Below, piece after piece: positions 511 through 59,507 of a DNA stretch of 64,000 nt. The notes beneath the pieces are model-generated. The model searched no databases and was not told the origin of the DNA. It saw only the letters and a list, made by a program, of their open reading frames with translations. This DNA is from Escherichia phage F2. The DNA is taken from the sequence record NC_054913.1; one strand, written 5' to 3'. Position 1 is the stretch's first letter. Each line of letters opens with the position of its first letter. The translations under genes were made by a program, and so were the position numbers.

Positions 511-1146
511 ATGAAAACTACTCCTATTACTATCGCTATTGACGCAATCATAAAACAAGCTTCTTCTTTGGCCGCTATGGCCAAAGTAATTAGTCAAAAC
601 CCTGCTCGTTATAATGCTATTCTAGAAACTCTTCGACGCCCAGGACTTAGTAATTATGAAAGCCGAGTAATTATTACAGGTGTTGGTAAGAATGCTAATA
701 TTGCAACTAAAGCTTCTGAGACATTTGCTTCACTCGGTATCCCGAGTATGTACTTGAACACTGGACATTATTCTCACGGTGATGCAGGATTCATTGCGCC
801 TAATGATGTGTTGATTCATATTAGTCGTTCTGGTAAAACTGAAGAAATGATAGGCGTGGCTAAGCATCTTAAAATGATTCGTCCGAACGTCAAACAGATT
901 CTGTTGCATTGTAACCCGGACATTCCACAAGAATACGAAGCTCTTTTTGATTATACGTTCTGTACAGGCATCGCAGTAGAGGTTGATGAGAATTCTCTGG
1001 CTCCGACCATGTCCACTACATTGTTGTTAGCGCTTATCGATACGTTTGCTATCAACCTTTCGTCTGAACGTGGATTTACCTCTAATGACTTCCTTAAGTT
1101 CCACCCTGGCGGTGCACTAGGTGCCATGTTACGAGGCGAACAATGA
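511..1146 (+). CDS. SIS-domain sugar-phosphate isomerase, KdsD/GutQ-like (arabinose-5-phosphate isomerase type, no CBS domains)
   Basis: ITGVGKNANIATKASETFASLGIPSMYLNTGHYSHGDAGF...HISRSGKTEEM...LAPTMSTTLLLALIDTF...FHPGGALG aligns motif-for-motif with the KdsD SIS domain (GMGKSG..FASTGTPS..HGDLG..ISNSGES..LAPTSSTT..SHPGGALG). Confidence 0.8.
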   Translation: MKTTPITIAIDAIIKQASSLAAMAKVISQNPARYNAILETLRRPGLSNYESRVIITGVGKNANIATKASETFASLGIPSMYLNTGHYSHGDAGFIAPNDVLIHISRSGKTEEMIGVAKHLKMIRPNVKQILLHCNPDIPQEYEALFDYTFCTGIAVEVDENSLAPTMSTTLLLALIDTFAINLSSERGFTSNDFLKFHPGGALGAMLRGEQ

Positions 1147-10118: not shown

Positions 10119-10123
10119 TAAAA

Positions 10124-10150
10124 GGAGACTTCGGTCTCCTTTCGGGGTTT
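10124..10150 (+). terminator. rho-independent terminator hairpin (UUCG loop) after gene 41
   Basis: ggagacttcggtctcc stem-loop followed by tttcggggttt. Confidence 0.5.
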
Positions 10151-15937: not shown

Positions 15938-15946
15938 ATAATTTAA

Positions 15947-15973
15947 GGAATCCTTCGGGATTCCTTTTTTGTT
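15947..15973 (+). terminator. rho-independent terminator after soc
   Basis: ggaatccttcgggattcc hairpin followed by tttttt. Confidence 0.7.
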
Positions 15974-23898: not shown

Positions 23899-24324
23899 AT
23901 GGCTTTTAAAGGTTTTGAAGTTGGTAAGAAATATCGTATTATCAAAGGACAGGAAGATAATTTCTTGAGAATTCTTAATACGACTGGTAAACGTCTTAAT
24001 ACTAATCTGCATACTACTTTATTGTCCAAAGATTTTATTGTAGAAGAGATGATTGGTTACGGTGTTTCGGTTATTGCCGTAGAAGCCGTAGGCGATTATG
24101 GCCGAACTATTCATAGTATGCAAGGTGATATTCTGCTTTATGGTGCAGAATTTAAATTCTTTGAAGAAGTTCCGGAACCAGATACAGCTGTCGATTTCAA
24201 AAAAGGCTCTGTAGAATTTGTTGATGGTTCGGTGATCGTATCAGGTGATGTGGTCATTACAGTTAAAAGTGAACAAGGGCGTTTGGCTGCAATTGATGCA
24301 CTTCAGAAAATTAAATTTAAATAA
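23899..24324 (+). CDS. hypothetical protein
   Basis: 141 aa ORF followed by terminator. Confidence 0.5.
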   Translation: MAFKGFEVGKKYRIIKGQEDNFLRILNTTGKRLNTNLHTTLLSKDFIVEEMIGYGVSVIAVEAVGDYGRTIHSMQGDILLYGAEFKFFEEVPEPDTAVDFKKGSVEFVDGSVIVSGDVVITVKSEQGRLAAIDALQKIKFK

Positions 24325-24346
24325 GGGCTTCGGCCCTTTTTGCTTT
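24323..24346 (+). terminator. rho-independent terminator
   Basis: aagggcttcggccctt + ttttgcttt. Confidence 0.7.
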
Positions 24347-30816: not shown

Positions 30817-30840
30817 TGGGGACTTCGGTCCCCTTTTTTC
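30817..30840 (+). terminator. rho-independent terminator after rIIB
   Basis: ggggacttcggtcccc + ttttttc. Confidence 0.8.
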
Positions 30841-34607: not shown

Positions 34608-34683
34608 GTGCCATAGCCTTAGGATTTCTCGGTGCAATAGCTGCACTAGTGATTTGGCTGTATTGGTTGGACAAACATGATTA

Positions 34684-34706
34684 GGGAGCTTCGGCTCCCT
34701 TTTGTG
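34684..34706 (+). terminator. rho-independent terminator downstream of gene 52
   Basis: gggagcttcggctccc + tttt. Confidence 0.7.
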
Positions 34707-38256: not shown

Positions 38257-38808
38257 TTACTTAAAGATATTTATAATCGCTTTGATAATAGATTTGTTTT
38301 CAAGGTCAGGGAATTTAGGGAATTCACCGCCAAGATGTTCATGTTTTTCTAAAAGGGCAAAGAATTTTTTGAGCTCTTTAAATTTTCGTTTTTCTTCTCT
38401 ATTAGCAACCTCTGCGTCAATAAGAGAACTTAAAACACTGAATAATTTATAGAGTTCATGAATTTTCTTATCACGTTGAACTACGCGTTTATATGCTTCA
38501 TCTTCCTTCCACCCGTCGTCGGTCCAAATGTCAAATTCACCAGGTTCTTCTGTAGTAACATTTTGAAGAGCACCTGGGGTGTCAATAACAATTTTTTGCT
38601 TATCATAAGTCCATACTGTTTTTCCACGATGGTCTTCAACATATACCCATTCTTGTTCGCGTTCATCAAATACAACAGCATAGCCTTCTTTAGGGTCTAA
38701 AGGTTTTTTAATTGTTGAATGAGCGGGAAGACCAAGACCTTTAACCGGTTTGTAATTTTCTTCTTTGTAAAATTCTTTAGTGTCAAAATAATAATGATAT
38801 ATTTTCAT
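38257..38808 (-). CDS. 38: gp38 long tail fibre assembly chaperone (T4 type)
   Basis: MKIYHYYFDTKEFYKEENYKPVKGLGLPAHSTIKKPLDPKEGYAVVFDE... matches T4 gp38. Confidence 0.85.
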   Translation of the reverse strand: MKIYHYYFDTKEFYKEENYKPVKGLGLPAHSTIKKPLDPKEGYAVVFDEREQEWVYVEDHRGKTVWTYDKQKIVIDTPGALQNVTTEEPGEFDIWTDDGWKEDEAYKRVVQRDKKIHELYKLFSVLSSLIDAEVANREEKRKFKELKKFFALLEKHEHLGGEFPKFPDLENKSIIKAIINIFK

Positions 38809-38815
38809 ATTTAGA

Positions 38816-38831
38816 AGGGGCCGAAGCCCCT
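38816..38831 (-). promoter_or_regulatory. mRNA hairpin between Shine-Dalgarno and AUG of gene 38
   Basis: On - strand: ...taaGGAGaggggcttcggccccttctaaatATG; the only SD-like GGAG is 22 nt from the ATG with a 6-bp GC stem/UUCG loop in between. Confidence 0.45.
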
Positions 38832-38835
38832 CTCC

Positions 38836-41800
38836 TTATGCTAAACGAACGATATAGTTAAAAGCAATGTTTTTAACCGTGTTTTCTGTATTACCTGTAC
38901 TATTTACAGTTATTGTATGTCCATGTGAACCAATTGCTACTGAATGGGTGTGAGCACCAATACCAACTGTATGGGTATGAGCACCAATACCAACAGTATG
39001 TGCGTGAGCGCCTGCGCTTGCAGCAGTACCAGATATAGAGTGCGAATGTGCCCCAGAAGAAGAAGAAGTTCCAAGCGTATTACCACCACCGGCGGATCCT
39101 CTTATAGAACCAGTACCAGGAGAGTTGTTACTTCCCGCATAAAGAGCGCTTGTGTGGCTGTGCGCACCGGCGGTGTTTGTGGAACCGCTCAAACTATGCG
39201 TATGAGCACCAGTATTATTACTGGTCTTAGTACCATAGTCGAAACTACTTGTCGTCTTAGTACCATAGTCAAAGCTTGATGTGGTTTTAGTACCTAAATC
39301 TGTGCTTGATGCACTTGCACTATGACTATGAGCCTTAACACCATCTGCCTCAGCGCTCAAAACAGCACGACCACTTGGTTTACCCTTGATAGTTTGTCCA
39401 CGCATATCAGGAATAGTACCTGTAGGATATGCGATAGCGAGCTTAGGATATGCAGACTTATCAAAAGTCTGACCTTCCATTAAAGCAAATCCAGCAGGAA
39501 CTGAATCACTTGGCCACGGAATCGGAGCACCGACTGGATAAGGTATTTGAGCATCAGAATACATCATATACACTTGACCAACAAGGTGACCAGCGGGTAA
39601 TTCTGCGACTGGGGTTTGGGGGCCTTCGTTAATTCCAACAACTGTCACGGCAGAGTTAGACGAACATTCATATTCAACTATTAACGAGTTTGAGAACGTT
39701 CCAACATATACATAAACATCGTAGGTGTCACCTGAAGTATTCATTGTAGCAATATTGGCGAAACCATTGCTGGTTCTAGCCCACATAGTGGCGTTAATAC
39801 CTTTAGGATTATTGTTGCCAGTACGAAGAACTATTTCGGTAATAGTGGCTTGTTCCGGTGAATTAGCATTAAATCCATTACCGCCAATTATTTTAAAGCT
39901 TGCTGTTCCTACAGCTTGTGGAATAGTTACTGTTGCAAATTTATACCATCCGGCGGTTGCTCCACCCTGCCAGCCGCCAGTATTAACTTTACGGTCTAAA
40001 GTAGTGTTTAAGTTAGCAAAGTTACCAGAGCCACCGGTGATATTACCGTCAGTTCCTAAAGTTGCGGCACCTGCAATAATTTTACCAGGTACGCGGAAGT
40101 CACCGGTACGACGGAATTCCCAACTTAAATCAGTTCCGGTAGTACTATTGCCCTGGTGATAATGGACGCGGAAGTCTCCTTGAGAAATTAAGGTGCCAAT
40201 AGAATAAGTGCTATCACCATTTACATACCGTTGTTTAACAATAGGAATGTATTCAGAAGTAGCAGTACGCTCTATATTCATATAAATTGGAGCCCTGACA
40301 TCTGCGTAATTCTGAGATGCAAACGAACCAGCTCCTGCTGGGCGTACCGTATCAGTACATTCGGCCTCAATATATGCAGCCTGACCTAATTGCATACGGT
40401 AATTAGGAGAAATGCGGCTATGACTAGTAACAACAACAATTTTGCTGTCATTGTCCACGGTAATCATATTGCCACCTCTGCCATCATCGCCTAACGTGAC
40501 AGAATGGCGCATTTGAACCATACCATTATTAAGGCCGATACTTAATGGGCGAAGATTACTTATTCCACCGAACCGCCCGGCATCTTTAGGAGTCGGAATA
40601 ATATGCAATGCGGCTTCTGAACGACGGAAAATAGCACCGTATTCAGCATTCCAAATTCTTAATGCATCAGCTGTTCCACCGAATTTAGCTTGACCGTTTA
40701 CAGATAATCCGCTATTAGCAACTAAACTTGATTCAGTAGCAATAGAGCCGGAAGCAGTAATACCACCGGAAGCTAATAATGCTCCAGCAATTCTAAATTG
40801 AATTGGTCCTACAGTTGAACCTGCTGCAGGAGCCGTACGTTGTGCATAAAAATAATAACCTTGGCCGTCAGCAACTTCAAACACAGTTTCACGAGATTTA
40901 TCACCAGACGTATTATTAGCAGTGCCCCATGCTTTAACAGTTACATAACTCTTATTCTGACCTGAACGAGTACCACCTTCCCACACGATTTGCTTAGTGC
41001 CGTCAATACCTGAAGCTGCTTTAAAAACTAGAGAAGCGTTGGTTCCATCACCATTAAAATATAATCCATTATTAAGCTTTAATGTTTGAACAGAAGCAAT
41101 AGTGCCATCGGCACGTAAATTTAATGAATTTGAACCAGTTTTAATATCTAAAATACCAGGCTCAATAAGAAGACCATCGCCCATACTAACAGACATGCGT
41201 CCTTGGCCACGGAAATAGTGATACATTTTAGCGTTAGAACTATAACCGATATGAGTCTGACCATCACCGTTATTATTACCATCAACATCAGTACGCGCAG
41301 TAAACATTGCCTGATTGCTATTAGGAAAATCCCATGTAGTACCAGAATCACGGCTATAACCGACCATCAATTTTTTAGTACTGTTAATACCATTGCTGTT
41401 TATTGTACCCGCAGAAATACCATTCGCAACTAAATCGATAACCCCGTCACGAACCCATTTAATACCAGTATCATTGTCACCAATTGCAATACCTTTACCA
41501 AACGAAACCAATGGATAACGTCCTTGGTCACCAACATCAGCAAGACCTATACCTATCGAATTAGCAACAGACATACGCCCATCTGTGGTATAAGACCATT
41601 GATAAACTTCAGCATTACGTCCCGTCCAATACGAAATATTCTGTGGTTTACCTGAACGAGCATCAGCAACTTCATGGAAAATAGCAGAAGAAACATGTCC
41701 GCGGAATTTACGAAGGTAGTTTATACCATTAGTATCCAAATCCGTTTCGGTTGGAGTATACTGCCAAGTAGGTAATGAAACTAAATCATATGCAGTATCA

Positions 41801-42450
41801 ATATTAGTGTCCCAAGATTTAGTGCTCACATTGATATTTTTGGTAATAACTTTAGGACCAATTAAAGAACCAGCTTTAGTTTCAATATTACTTTGAGTAA
41901 CTAAATATCCATTAGATACTAATAAACTTCCGGAATCAACTTGAAAATTACCGTTTCGATTAAAAGTCCAGTATTTTGAAGTCCCGGTTTCATCAATATA
42001 ATGGAATTTAAAACTACCTTCGTTTACTAATGTACCAGCAGAAAAAGTTCCATCTTTATAGCGTTGTTTAATCAGCGGATGGTATTCTGAAACAGAAGTA
42101 GTTGAACTTAAATCTGTAAAGATAGGGGCTTTATTCAAATGTTGGTTGGCCCAAGCACCATTTCCAGCGGTTTTAGGTAAAAATTCAATATACTTACCGG
42201 CGTAAACGAACATATTACCATTGAGGTTAAATGTGCCGTTTTGTAAATAATCACCATTTTGAGTTACATTACCGTTAATATCCCCGCCCTTAGCAAAGCC
42301 TAGGCTAATAATATTACCGAGGTCATCTTTAGTAAAAAGAGTTCGATCTTTTAAGTTTATCGCTAATTCGCCTTCGGCTAATTGTGCTGCAGTAGGATTA
42401 ACTCCTGCCACTTTGCTTCTTTTAAATTGTATCTGTTTTAATGTAGCCAT
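38836..42450 (-). CDS. 37: gp37 long tail fibre distal subunit (receptor-binding)
   Basis: 1204 aa; C-terminal His-rich [27 protein letters not shown]...[11 protein letters not shown] as in T4 gp37; order 34-35-36-37-38-t. Confidence 0.9.
39226..39300 (-). repeat. imperfect 30-nt tandem repeat (2.5 copies) inside gene 37
   Basis: cttagtaccatagtcgaaactacttgtcgt / cttagtaccatagtcaaagcttgatgtggt / tttagtacctaaatc; encodes repeated ...[10 protein letters not shown]... peptide. Confidence 0.6.
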
Positions 42451-43124: not shown

Positions 43125-43149
43125 AGTTGTCTCCTTATATGTATACCAT

Positions 43150-43157
43150 ATTTATAC
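43150..43157 (-). promoter_or_regulatory. late promoter TATAAATA for genes 36-37-38-t
   Basis: Reverse complement of tatttata; followed by SD AAGGAGA and gene 36 ATG. Confidence 0.5.
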
Positions 43158-43182
43158 AAAAATGGGAGCCCGAAGGCTCCCT
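43158..43182 (-). terminator. terminator hairpin after gene 35 (- strand)
   Basis: - strand gggagccttcgggctccc followed by atttttg. Confidence 0.55.
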
Positions 43183-51481: not shown

Positions 51482-51504
51482 GGGAGACTTCGGTCTCCCT
51501 TTTG
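51482..51504 (+). terminator. rho-independent terminator after gene 32
   Basis: gggagacttcggtctccc + tttt. Confidence 0.75.
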
Positions 51505-57930: not shown

Positions 57931-59070
57931 ATGAGTACAGTTTTTAACACACGACAAGTCGATGTTTTGAATGAACCGATGTTCTTTGGTTCTGGTCTTG
58001 GTATTGCGCGTTATGATATTCAACGCCATAAAGTTTTTGAAGATTTGACCGAAAAGCAATTATCGTTTTTTTGGCGCCCAGAAGAGGTAAACTTGATGTT
58101 GGACTCTGCGCAGTTCAATAAGCTTCCTCAGTTCCAACAGGACATCTTTACAAACAATCTTAAGTATCAATCATTATTAGATTCTATCCAAGGCAGGGCC
58201 CCATCTGCGGTACTTATGGCACTGATTTCCGACCCTTCATTAGATACGTGGGTTGCAACATGGACATTCAGTGAAACTATTCACTCTCGTTCGTATACTC
58301 ATATTATGCGAAATCTTTATACGGATCCATCTAAGGTATTTGATGAAATTGTATTAGACGAAGCAATCATGAAACGAGCTGGATCAATAGGTAAATATTA
58401 CGATGATGTTCTAGTCAAGACTCGCCTTTACCGGAATGCTTTAGAAGAATATCACGAGTTTAGCGAAGGCGTAAAACAGGCTAAATACGAACTAATGCGT
58501 TCTCTTTACCTCTGTCTGCACGTAATCAACGCTCTGGAAGCTATTCGTTTTTACGTATCATTTGCATGTACTTTCAACTTCCATAAAAATATGGAAATTA
58601 TGGAAGGTAATGCAAAGATTATGAAGTTCATTGCTCGTGACGAACAACTCCACCTCAAGGGTACTCAGTACATTATCCGTCAACTTCAATCTGGTACTGA
58701 TGGTGATGAGTGGGTTCAAATTGCTAAAGAATGTGAACAAGAAGCAGTTGACATTTTTATGGAAGTAAATAGACAAGAGAAGGAATGGGCTGCACACCTC
58801 TTTAAAGACGGTACATGCCCAGGTATCAATACGCAGAGTATGTGTGCTTTTGTTGATTACTTGACTGTGTCTCGTATGAAACAGTGTGGTTTGCCATGCC
58901 CAATCACTGATGCTCCGACCAAGCATCCGTATCCTTGGATTCGTGAATATCTGAACTCTGATTTAGTTCAAGCAGCTCCTCAGGAAGTTGAAATCAGTTC
59001 TTATCTTGTCGCACAAATTGATAATGATGTAGACCAAAATGTAATCAATTCATACAAAAAATATTTCTAA
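57931..59070 (+). CDS. nrdB: ribonucleotide reductase small subunit (uninterrupted)
   Basis: 379 aa; di-iron/tyrosyl radical protein motifs; syntenic. Confidence 0.9.
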   Translation: MSTVFNTRQVDVLNEPMFFGSGLGIARYDIQRHKVFEDLTEKQLSFFWRPEEVNLMLDSAQFNKLPQFQQDIFTNNLKYQSLLDSIQGRAPSAVLMALISDPSLDTWVATWTFSETIHSRSYTHIMRNLYTDPSKVFDEIVLDEAIMKRAGSIGKYYDDVLVKTRLYRNALEEYHEFSEGVKQAKYELMRSLYLCLHVINALEAIRFYVSFACTFNFHKNMEIMEGNAKIMKFIARDEQLHLKGTQYIIRQLQSGTDGDEWVQIAKECEQEAVDIFMEVNRQEKEWAAHLFKDGTCPGINTQSMCAFVDYLTVSRMKQCGLPCPITDAPTKHPYPWIREYLNSDLVQAAPQEVEISSYLVAQIDNDVDQNVINSYKKYF

Positions 59071-59074
59071 GGAC

Positions 59075-59096
59075 GGGACTTCGGTCCCACTTTATT
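59075..59096 (+). terminator. terminator-like hairpin after nrdB
   Basis: gggacttcggtccc + actttatt. Confidence 0.5.
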
Positions 59097-59507
59097 ATGA
59101 AAGATATTGCCGCCGAATATTCCTTTATTAAATATACAGAATTGGAGCTATTAGAAGATGCAACAATTAAAACAGTTGATGTCCCTAATAAGAAAAATGT
59201 CATATACGCTATTGCTATAGATGACGAACTTGTGTATATTGGTAAAACCAAGAATTTAAAGAAACGCATTAACTATTATCGAACAGCCATAAATCGAAAA
59301 GACCAGACTTCAGATTCAAGAAAATCACTTATGATTTTGGATGCCTTAATGCAAGGCAAAAAGGTTGAATTCTGGGCCCGCCAATGTTTTGACCTTTCAG
59401 TCACCAACGAACTTGGTTCAATGACCATCGCAACAATGGACCTTGAAGAACCGCTTTTTATCAAAAAGTTCAACCCGCCTTGGAATATCCAACATAAGAA
59501 AAAGTAG
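59097..59507 (+). CDS. denA: endonuclease II (GIY-YIG family)
   Basis: 136 aa; MKDIAAEYSFIKYTELEL...VIYAIAIDDELVYIGKTKNLKKRINYYRTAINRKD...FNPPWNIQHKKK matches T4 EndoII. Confidence 0.9.
   Translation: MKDIAAEYSFIKYTELELLEDATIKTVDVPNKKNVIYAIAIDDELVYIGKTKNLKKRINYYRTAINRKDQTSDSRKSLMILDALMQGKKVEFWARQCFDLSVTNELGSMTIATMDLEEPLFIKKFNPPWNIQHKKK

What the first reader, a model, noticed from the sequence alone, without database searches (positions are those of the whole stretch)
38809..38835. Hairpin separating Shine-Dalgarno from start codon of gene 38
The only SD-like sequence (GGAG) before gene 38 lies 22 nt upstream of the ATG, with a 6-bp GC-rich UUCG-loop hairpin in between. Folding would bring SD and AUG to a functional spacing, a structure-dependent translational coupling device described for T4 late genes. 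It also sits directly after the gene 37 stop codon.
Basis: partly seen in the sequence, partly recalled or inferred. Interest (0 to 1): 0.4.

Follow-up and report, generated by a model that had tools for sequence, protein, structure and literature searches.

The report
Known T4 gene 38 split ribosome-binding site
This is the T4 gene 37/38 junction described in the literature, where a very stable small RNA hairpin sits between the ribosome-binding sequence and the start codon of gene 38 and is thought to bring them close enough to work; it is real and conserved, but already known.

Summary
On the minus strand, the 27 nt between the gene 37 stop and the gene 38 start (38835..38809) read GGAG-AGGGGC-UUCG-GCCCCU-UCUAAAU. 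That is a Shine-Dalgarno (SD) sequence touching the stop codon, a 6-bp hairpin closed as C(UUCG)G, and a 7-nt spacer.

The gap between GGAG and AUG is 23 nt here, not 22. The 22 fits the old T4 reference sequence, which has one C fewer.

A 91-nt query across the junction (38870..38780) is 100% identical to several T4 isolates. Two papers name T4 genes 38 and 25 as the cases of a "split" ribosome-binding site, so the finding is already known.

New supporting evidence:
- Twelve distinct junction variants keep the stem 100% paired, and one position shows GC/AU/CG/GU.
- The SD always abuts the stem, and the spacer stays at 6-8 nt.
- Gene 38 has no other in-frame start and no conventional SD.

Complication: the same hairpin follows gp37-like genes as a textbook terminator in Yersinia phages, and it lies upstream of a normal SD in phage Moon. 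It probably also serves, or began, as a 3'-end element of the fibre gene.

In passing, nrdB/denA (59068..59099, plus strand) has the same design across six genera. I did not find it described.

The parts
38836..42450 (-). Gene 37 (distal long tail fibre subunit, 1204 aa); its stop codon UAA is 38838..38836
   Evidence: ORF list and translation. Pfam Collar and Phage_fiber domains. GenBank relatives annotate the match as the long tail fibre distal subunit.
38832..38838 (-). Shine-Dalgarno sequence UAAGGAG (core GGAG 38835..38832). It overlaps the gene 37 stop codon and touches the hairpin.
   Evidence: A 7-nt match to the anti-SD complement, 23 nt before the AUG. It is the longest SD match among 88 ORFs in the window. 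It is invariant in all 12 distinct junction variants aligned.
38816..38831 (-). C(UUCG)G tetraloop hairpin: 5' arm AGGGGC 38831..38826, loop UUCG 38825..38822, 3' arm GCCCCU 38821..38816. A G.U pair 38832-38815 may extend the stem.
   Evidence: Centroid structure -13.2 kcal/mol. Core pair probabilities 0.99-1.0. 100% of cells paired in 12 variants, with GC/AU/CG/GU at one position. RNAalifold gives the same stem.
38809..38815 (-). Spacer UCUAAAU, 7 nt between the stem and the AUG. This is the effective SD-AUG distance once the hairpin is looped out.
   Evidence: Sequence. The spacer is 6-8 nt in all variants. It is U-poor (3 U in the 8 nt after the stem), so the terminator scan does not call this site.
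38257..38808 (-). Gene 38 (T4-type tail fibre assembly chaperone, 183 aa); start AUG 38808..38806
   Evidence: Translation. About 70% identity to T4 gp38 over residues 1-179, 100% to phage JQD51. Pfam Caudo_TAP. No other in-frame ATG/GTG/TTG in the ORF. All relatives start at the aligned ATGAAA.
43149..43156 (-). T4 late-promoter motif TATAAATA, about 700 nt upstream of the gene 37 start. It is the nearest upstream late promoter, so gene 38 is read from a polycistronic late mRNA running through gene 37.
   Evidence: Pattern search. There is no TATAAATA on the minus strand between 43149 and the gene 38 start; the next one (38275..38268) lies at the 3' end of gene 38, before t. Inferred: no transcript mapping was done.
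38690..38930 (-). Island of about 95-100% DNA identity to T4 spanning the gene 37 3' end, the junction and the gene 38 5' end. Sequence on both sides is only 45-65% identical.
   Evidence: Sliding identity against T4T.

Best explanation
This is the orthologue of the T4 gene 37/38 junction, and it is sequence-identical to T4 there. It carries the known 'split' (noncontiguous) translation initiation region of gene 38.

Gene 38 has no promoter of its own between the late promoter upstream of gene 37 (near 43150) and its start, so it is translated from a polycistronic late mRNA. Its only Shine-Dalgarno sequence, UAAGGAG, overlaps the gene 37 stop codon and lies 23 nt before the AUG, too far to work on a linear RNA.

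The 16 nt directly after the SD fold at once into a very stable C(UUCG)G hairpin. With these looped out, SD and AUG are separated by a 7-nt single-stranded spacer plus the width of the helix base. The 30S subunit can then pair with the SD and place the AUG in the P site.

Shown here: sequence, fold stability, compensatory conservation, absence of any alternative SD or start, and identity to T4.
Taken from the literature: the bridging role, which for gene 38 itself is described as 'suggested'.
Inferred: the same hairpin also acts, or once acted, as a 3'-end element (weak terminator or exonuclease barrier) for the fibre gene, and the ribosome-binding site was accommodated around it.
For: Identity:
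- A 91-nt query across the junction (38870..38780) is 100% identical to several T4 isolates.
- T4T annotates genes 37, 38 and t in the same order.

Literature:
- PMC3014915 names genes 38 and 25 as structure-bridged sites; for gene 38, 22 nt is reduced to 5.
- PMC7297116 says the same, citing Gold 1988.

Structure:
- Centroid hairpin -13.2 kcal/mol; core pairs P = 0.99-1.0.

Comparison across relatives:
- 12 distinct junctions, 7 pairs, 100% of cells paired, with GC, AU, CG and GU at one pair; 0 of 500 shuffles reach the covariation score.
- The loop can change (UUCG, UUCU, UUAU, GUUA) while the stem is kept.
- GGAG abuts the stem in every T-even-type variant, and the stem-to-AUG spacer stays at 6-8 nt although total length varies from 26 to 31 nt.
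- Phage Moon keeps the hairpin, lacks the upstream GGAG, and has GAGG 5 nt before its AUG. This either/or pattern suggests the upstream SD is the one used in the T-even type.

No alternative:
- No SD-like sequence within 19 nt of the AUG and no other in-frame start.
- 61 of 88 ORFs have their SD at 3-11 nt; gene 38 is one of two at 23 nt.
- No late promoter lies between the gene 37 region and gene 38.
Against: - No experiment on this sequence was available to me. PMC7297116 says the gene 38 role 'was suggested'.
- Covariation is thin: one pair with double changes, from perhaps 2-3 independent events, and many junctions lie in a recombining, near-identical island.
- The thermodynamic model lets the SD pair weakly with the UCU after the stem (P(unpaired) 0.2-0.6; RNAalifold extends the stem into the SD). 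The structure could therefore also dampen initiation.
- The identical GGGGCUUCGGCCCC hairpin works in a clearly different context in Yersinia phages (a terminator with a U-run; next gene 117 nt downstream with its own SD) and in Moon. The hairpin's existence therefore does not depend on bridging.
Confidence: 0.75

Rival explanations
1. The hairpin is mainly a 3'-end element of the fibre gene: a weak intrinsic terminator and/or a barrier to 3'->5' exonucleases that stabilises gene 37 mRNA and sets a low gp38:gp37 ratio. It travels with the conserved gp37 C-terminal module. Its position between SD and AUG is an accommodation, not its purpose. This can coexist with the best explanation; the confidence given is for it being the main or only function.
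For: - Yersinia phages X1 and YenM_22 have a gp37-like C-terminus (...NYIVRLA*) followed by AAAGGGGCUUCGGCCCCUUUAUUUUUUU, a textbook terminator. The next gene is 117 nt downstream with its own promoter-like sequence and SD.
- Moon has the same hairpin upstream of a normal SD.
- Mosigvirus-type variants have GUCCCUUUUUAUAAU, a good U-run, and two GenBank submitters annotate the site as 'terminator'.
- Most of the other UUCG hairpins in the window are followed by T-runs.
- A T4 hairpin with a short U-tract was measured as a 30-50% terminator (PMC2790892).
Against: - In this window the tail is UCUAAAUA (3 U in 8), and the terminator scan does not call it.
- Gene 38 has no promoter of its own, so most polymerases must read through.
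- This reading does not explain why GGAG always touches the stem, why the spacer stays at 6-8 nt, or why no downstream SD exists.
Confidence: 0.15
2. Termination-reinitiation coupling. Ribosomes finishing gene 37 at UAA stay on the mRNA, are held by the SD that overlaps the stop codon, and restart at the AUG 27 nt downstream. The hairpin, which the terminating ribosome melts and which then refolds, only shortens the path. Gene 38 translation would then depend on gene 37 translation.
For: - The SD overlaps the stop codon (UAAGGAG), and so does the denA SD (UAAGGA), a common layout in coupled genes.
- A ribosome at the stop codon would cover and unwind the 5' arm (inference from the known ribosome footprint size).
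- Gene 38 lies on a polycistronic mRNA.
Against: - A 27-nt gap is long for classical coupling.
- No data bear on whether gene 38 depends on gene 37 translation.
- The literature describes the device as SD-AUG bridging.
Confidence: 0.07
3. Negative control. An extended helix sequesters the SD (GGA with UCU) and the AUG (CAUA of the gene 37 end with UAUG) to keep the chaperone gp38 at low levels.
For: - The partition function gives the outer CAUA/UAUG helix P about 0.57 and SD bases P(unpaired) 0.2-0.6.
- RNAalifold extends the stem into the SD with G.U and A-U pairs.
Against: - The outer helix is broken without compensation where the gene 37 last codon changes (ESCO47 GCU, L025 GCC).
- The extension pairs are weak and broken in 2 of 12 variants.
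- 30S binding would displace them easily.
Confidence: 0.03

Closest known systems
T4 gene 38 translation initiation region (split or noncontiguous ribosome-binding site; attributed to Gold 1988 in PMC7297116, reviewed in PMC3014915)
   Same: It is the same element. A 91-nt query across the junction is 100% identical to T4 isolates, with the same SD, hairpin, spacer and start.
   Different: Nothing functional. The host phage is a different Tequatrovirus: its gp38 is only about 70% identical to T4's and its gp37 is 1204 aa. The spacing is 23 nt rather than the published 22, because NC_000866.4 has one C fewer in the 3' arm.
T4 gene 25 split initiation region at the 26-25 junction (Nivinskas et al. 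1999; Malys and Nivinskas 2009, as summarised in PMC3014915)
   Same: A hairpin between SD and AUG brings them to a working distance (27 to 11 nt). It is conserved in close T-even phages, absent in distant ones, and was described as an 'accommodated' ribosome-binding site.
   Different: It is a different locus and a different hairpin, not in this window. Gene 25 has reporter and DMS-probing data; for gene 38 I found only the statement that the role was suggested.
C(UUCG)G tetraloop hairpins of T4 mRNA (Tuerk et al. 1988 from my own knowledge; the T4 origin is recorded in PMC4371310)
   Same: UUCG loop closed by a C-G pair, with a G+C-rich stem in an A+T-rich genome. There are 14 such hairpins in this window against 0.7 expected.
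   Different: Most of the others are followed by T-runs and look like terminators. This one and the denA one sit between an SD and a start codon.
Intrinsic (Rho-independent) terminators, including weak T4 ones (PMC2790892)
   Same: A G+C-rich stem-loop right after a stop codon. The identical hairpin with a long U-run follows gp37-like genes in Yersinia phages.
   Different: The U-tract in this window is poor (UCUAAAUA) and the consensus scan does not call it. The downstream gene depends on read-through.

Membership tests
Split (structure-bridged) SD-AUG initiation region, T4 gene 38 type | An SD complementary to the 16S rRNA 3' end lies too far upstream of the start codon to act linearly (more than about 13 nt) | tested here: met
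   UAAGGAG ends 23 nt before the AUG. 61 of 88 ORFs in the window have their SD at 3-11 nt.
Split (structure-bridged) SD-AUG initiation region, T4 gene 38 type | A stable hairpin fills the gap, so the remaining single-stranded spacing falls in the working range | tested here: met
   16-nt hairpin, -13.2 kcal/mol, core P = 0.99-1.0. The residual spacer is 7 nt here and 6-8 nt in 12 variants.
Split (structure-bridged) SD-AUG initiation region, T4 gene 38 type | No conventional SD and no alternative start codon | tested here: met
   Nothing SD-like within 19 nt of the AUG, and no other in-frame ATG/GTG/TTG in the whole ORF.
Split (structure-bridged) SD-AUG initiation region, T4 gene 38 type | The stem is kept in relatives through compensatory changes | tested here: met
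   100% of 84 cells paired; one pair shows GC/AU/CG/GU. The support is modest: one covarying pair.
Split (structure-bridged) SD-AUG initiation region, T4 gene 38 type | Orthology to the T4 37/38 junction | tested here: met
   100% identity over a 91-nt query to several T4 isolates; same gene order 37-38-t.
Split (structure-bridged) SD-AUG initiation region, T4 gene 38 type | Stem disruption lowers translation and compensatory changes restore it | not testable with these tools
   Needs reporter fusions or toeprinting. The review reports this for the class; PMC7297116 calls the gene 38 role 'suggested'.
Intrinsic terminator | A G+C-rich stem-loop downstream of a gene | tested here: met
   6-bp stem, 5 G-C/C-G pairs, starting 4 nt after the stop codon.
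Intrinsic terminator | A U-tract directly after the stem (at least 5 U in 8 nt in the scan used) | tested here: not met
   The tail is UCUAAAUA, and the site is not listed by the scan. The feature is met in Mosigvirus-type and Yersinia-phage versions.
Intrinsic terminator | RNA 3' ends map to the U-tract | not testable with these tools
   Needs Term-seq or 3' RACE.
C(UUCG)G tetraloop hairpin class of T4 mRNAs | UUCG loop closed by a C-G pair on a Watson-Crick stem | tested here: met
   C38826-G38821 closes UUCG. The class is 20-fold over-represented in the window.
Classical translational coupling (termination-reinitiation) | Stop and start codons overlap or lie within a few nt of each other | tested here: not met
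   They are 27 nt apart. Only the SD overlaps the stop codon.

The most novel reading that the evidence does not exclude
'Stop codon-SD-stable tetraloop hairpin-6 to 8 nt-AUG' may be a reusable junction module in Tevenvirinae rather than a curiosity of genes 38 and 25. One hairpin would serve as a 3'-end/attenuator element for the upstream gene and also as the bridge that lets the downstream gene use an SD overlapping the upstream stop codon.

The window holds a second instance at nrdB/denA (59068..59099, plus strand), with the same 23-nt SD-AUG distance. It is kept across six genera with different stems and loops (GGGAC/UUCG, UGGGCC/GCAA, AGGGCC/UUCG, AGGGGC/UUCG, AGGGC/UUCG). I did not find it described; two papers name only genes 38 and 25.
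Probability: 0.3. Interest if true: 0.4.

Novelty: already known. Interest (0 to 1): 0.15.

Why it matters
The finding itself adds nothing to biology: it rediscovers the cited example of a split ribosome-binding site. It does show that a sequence-only reader can pick the element out correctly.

Three modest points are worth keeping:
1. Comparative support for the gene 38 hairpin (compensatory stem variants, constant spacer). I did not find this documented for gene 38.
2. The same hairpin is a terminator in Yersinia phages and lies upstream of a normal SD in Moon. This supports an 'accommodated' origin and a probable dual role.
3. The nrdB/denA junction has the same design across six genera. 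It affects annotation: T4 RefSeq starts denA at a GTG inside the hairpin. If confirmed, it would make the device a general module of T4-type phages.

Tried and rejected
Searches that added little:
- IMG/VR and metagenome scans for gp38 relatives gave only 2 and 6 loci. They added two junction variants (loop UUCU in L001; L025) but little depth; most variants came from GenBank phages.
- Rfam has no family at gathering score anywhere in the window.
- Literature look-ups failed for Malys and Nivinskas 2009 and the T4 genome review, so I could not read the primary gene 38 or gene 25 data. No paper mentioning a denA split site turned up.

Ideas tested and dropped:
- Local-shuffle z-scores are weak (-1.8 and -2.0) and are not a good test for a 16-nt G+C-rich hairpin. 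I replaced them with window-wide censuses.
- An outer helix pairing the end of gene 37 (CAUA) with UAUG of the start has P about 0.57. I rejected it because it is broken without compensation in ESCO47 and L025.
- Stop-codon readthrough fusing gp37 to gp38: the genes are in frame here, 27 nt apart. Rejected because intergenic length varies from 26 to 31 nt in relatives.
- A strong terminator: not called by the scan.
- An alternative start: none exists.
- RegB cleavage at GGAG: the review says all late transcripts are resistant and that strong sites need an A-rich 3' context, so this is not relevant to gene 38.

Full report
**What is there.** The genes lie on the minus strand. The 1204-aa ORF 38836..42450 is a gp37-type distal tail fibre subunit (Pfam Collar and Phage_fiber). 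The 183-aa ORF 38257..38808 is a T4-type gp38 assembly chaperone (Pfam Caudo_TAP). It is 100% identical to that of phage JQD51 and about 70% identical to T4 gp38 over residues 1-179. The window is a Tequatrovirus; its best DNA match is phage AV117 at 98%.

Between the two genes the minus strand reads UAA-GGAG-AGGGGC-UUCG-GCCCCU-UCUAAAU-AUG. The finding's coordinates 38809..38835 are exactly this 27-nt intergenic region. The figure 22 matches the old T4 reference NC_000866.4, whose 3' arm has one C fewer. T4T and most other T4 records have the window's sequence.

**Is it more than chance?** RNAfold gives the hairpin as the centroid structure (-13.2 kcal/mol), and the five G-C/C-G pairs form with probability 0.99-1.0 in a 141-nt context. 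Z-scores against local shuffles are only -1.8 to -2.0. That test is weak here, because any order of 12 G/C bases folds well. Window-wide tests are clearer:
- Perfect UUCG-loop hairpins with stems of at least 5 bp: 14 observed, 0.7 expected, maximum 3 in 200 shuffles.
- CTTCGG: 31 observed, 15.7 expected; 0 of 100 shuffles reach 31.
- Of 88 non-overlapping ORFs, 61 have an SD-like match 3-11 nt before the start. Only two have it at 23 nt, and those two carry the longest SD matches, UAAGGAG and UAAGGA.
- A direct search for SD-hairpin-(3 to 12 nt)-ATG finds the same two genes.

**It is the known T4 element.** A 91-nt query across the junction is 100% identical to several T4 isolates and related phages. 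A review of T4 post-transcriptional control states that genes 38 and 25 have a suboptimal SD-AUG spacing brought to a working distance by an intervening RNA structure. For gene 38 the spacing goes from 22 nt to 5 (PMC3014915). A 2020 paper says the same, credits gene 38 to Gold 1988 and gene 25 to Nivinskas et al. 1999, calls such sites 'noncontiguous or split', and words the function as 'suggested' (PMC7297116). The UUCG tetraloop itself was found in T4 mRNA (PMC4371310).

**Comparative evidence gathered here.** I collected junctions from GenBank phages, IMG/VR and metagenomes and found 14 distinct versions. Twelve were aligned. NC_000866.4 (one C fewer) and the unverified TH57 record (one extra G) were left out.
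- Stems: AGGGGC/GCCCCU (T4, the window, Gaprivervirus); AAGGGAC/GUCCCUU (Mosigvirus type); AAGGGGC/GUCCCUU with a G.U intermediate (phage Mizar); AGGGCC/GGCCCU (ESCO47).
- Loops: UUCG, UUCU, UUAU and GUUA.
- All 84 pair cells form standard pairs. One pair shows GC, AU, CG and GU. None of 500 shuffles reaches the observed covariation score, and sliding the partners lowers pairing to 32-81%. RNAalifold recovers the stem.
- GGAG touches the stem in every T-even-type version. The stem-to-AUG spacer stays at 6-8 nt although the intergenic length varies from 26 to 31 nt.
- Gene 38 has no other in-frame ATG, GTG or TTG in the whole ORF, and nothing SD-like within 19 nt of the AUG.
- On the minus strand the late-promoter motif TATAAATA occurs at 43156..43149 and at 38275..38268 (before t), but not in between. 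Gene 38 must therefore be read from a polycistronic late mRNA.

This support is real but thin. There is one covarying pair, and the junction sits in a 240-nt island of 95-100% identity to T4 flanked by 45-65% identity. Many of the copies are therefore not independent.

**A complication.** The same hairpin occurs in other settings.
- In Citrobacter phage Moon the junction is UAAUAGAUU-GGGGCUUCGGCCCC-UCUGAGGAAACU-AUG. The hairpin is kept, there is no GGAG before it, and a normal GAGG lies 5 nt before the AUG.
- In the 50-kb Yersinia phages X1 and YenM_22, a gp37-like gene ending ...NYIVRLA* is followed by AAAGGGGCUUCGGCCCCUUUAUUUUUUU, a textbook intrinsic terminator. The next gene is 117 nt downstream with its own SD.
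- Mosigvirus-type junctions have a U-run after the stem, and two GenBank submitters annotate the site as a terminator.
- A T4 hairpin with a short U-tract was measured as a 30-50% terminator (PMC2790892).

The hairpin thus travels with the 3' end of the fibre gene and does not need the split arrangement to exist. In this window the tail is UCUAAAUA and the terminator scan does not call it.

My reading is that the hairpin is, or began as, a 3'-end element of gene 37, and that the gene 38 ribosome-binding site was accommodated around it. Bridging would then be the function that keeps the SD position and spacer length fixed. The either/or pattern (SD abutting upstream in T-even types, SD downstream in Moon) supports actual use of the upstream SD.

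**Mechanism and its status.**
- Shown: the sequence, the fold, its conservation, the lack of alternatives, and identity to T4.
- From the literature: that the structure brings SD and AUG to a working distance.
- Inferred: the geometry (a 7-nt spacer plus the width of the helix base falls within the usual SD-AUG range), the dual 3'-end role, and possible interplay with ribosomes terminating on the UAA that overlaps the SD.

The thermodynamic model also allows weak pairing of the SD with the UCU after the stem, and of CAUA (end of gene 37) with UAUG. The second helix is broken without compensation in two variants, so I reject it.

**Seen in passing: a second instance.** nrdB (57931..59070, plus strand) ends UAA, followed by GGAC-GGGAC-UUCG-GUCCC-ACUUUAUU-AUG of denA (endonuclease II; 136 aa, GIY-YIG). 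The SD (UAAGGA) again overlaps the stop codon and again ends 23 nt before the AUG. Counting the window's own genus, the design recurs in six genera:
- T4 and HY01 (Tequatrovirus): UAA-GGAG-UGGGCC-GCAA-GGCCCA-UUUUAUU-AUG
- KaAlpha (Karamvirus): GGAG-AGGGCC-UUCG-GGCCCU-UCUGUU-AUG
- KP179 (Jiaodavirus): GGAA-AGGGGC-UUCG-GCCCCU-CUUUAUU-AUG
- PSTRCR_127 (Gualtarvirus): UAG-GAG-AGGGC-UUCG-GCCCU-UUUUAUU-AUG
- JS10 (Dhakavirus): the same layout
- S16 (Gelderlandvirus): a less clean version

Three of six pairs show compensatory changes. This hairpin is terminator-like by the scan, so the dual-role reading applies even more strongly. T4 RefSeq starts denA at a GTG inside the 5' arm (144 aa), whereas other records use the AUG after the hairpin (136 aa). 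I found no description of this junction in the papers I could search, and the two papers above name only genes 38 and 25. I cannot exclude a description in a subscription journal.

**Verdict.** Interest is low. The only open lead is whether the stop-SD-hairpin-AUG junction is a general module of T4-type phages, with denA as an unreported member.

Noticed in passing
window 59068..59099 (+ strand); loci L027-L034: The nrdB/denA junction has the same design as 37/38: UAA-GGAC-GGGAC-UUCG-GUCCC-ACUUUAUU-AUG. The SD overlaps the stop codon and ends 23 nt before the AUG. The design is kept across six Tevenvirinae genera with different stems and loops; 3 of 6 pairs show compensatory changes. It is also terminator-like. 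I did not find it described.
   Followed up: partly
L034 2452 (NC_000866.4 137951), compared with window 59097: T4 RefSeq annotates denA from a GTG inside the 5' arm of the hairpin (144 aa), and JS10 from an ATG just before the hairpin. Other records use the AUG after the hairpin (136 aa). The start is probably mis-annotated in those two records.
   Followed up: partly
whole window; e.g. 10121..10142, 15945..15966, 24323..24338, 30818..30833, 34683..34700, 51482..51499 (+); 43181..43164 (-): The window has 14 perfect UUCG-loop hairpins with stems of at least 5 bp, against 0.7 expected. Most are followed by T-runs and look like terminators. The one at 43181..43164 (-) sits directly before the late-promoter motif TATAAATA at 43156..43149.
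   Followed up: partly
window 38690..38930: An island of 95-100% DNA identity to T4 spans the gene 37 3' end, the junction and the gene 38 5' end, flanked by 45-65% identity on both sides. It looks like a conserved linker where fibre-tip and chaperone modules are exchanged by recombination.
   Followed up: partly
L008 (NC_000866.4) compared with L003 (T4T) and the window: The T4 reference sequence has GCCCU where T4T, other T4 isolates and the window have GCCCCU in the 3' arm. This is probably an old sequencing compression in a G+C hairpin, and it is the likely source of the published '22 nt'.
   Followed up: yes
L019, L020 (Yersinia phages vB_Yen_X1, vB_YenM_22), 601..700: These 50-kb Yersinia phages carry a gp37-like C-terminus (...[17 protein letters not shown]) followed by the identical GGGGCUUCGGCCCC hairpin with a long U-run, a classic terminator. 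The fibre end and its hairpin appear to have moved together between unrelated phage types.
   Followed up: partly
L007 (Citrobacter phage Moon), 368..403: The same hairpin follows gene 37, but the gene 38 SD (GAGG) lies after it at normal spacing and there is no GGAG before it.
   Followed up: yes
L009 (Salmonella phage Lv5cm), 185..300: The hairpin, spacer and first 19 codons of gene 38 are duplicated in tandem. The first copy ends in a stop codon, and the second hairpin copy has no GGAG before it. This is either an assembly artefact or a natural test of the SD requirement.
   Followed up: no
window 38806..38838: Genes 37 and 38 are in the same reading frame, 27 nt apart with no intervening stop codon, so readthrough of UAA would fuse them. 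The frame is not kept in relatives, where the gap is 26-31 nt, so this is probably meaningless.
   Followed up: yes
window 38836..39300 (gene 37 3' end): This gp37 is 1204 aa against 1026 aa in T4 (the T4 length is from my own knowledge). Its C-terminal part carries many His-x-His and GAHxH-type repeats plus duplicated 'SSFDYGTKT' segments, the variable receptor-binding region.
   Followed up: no
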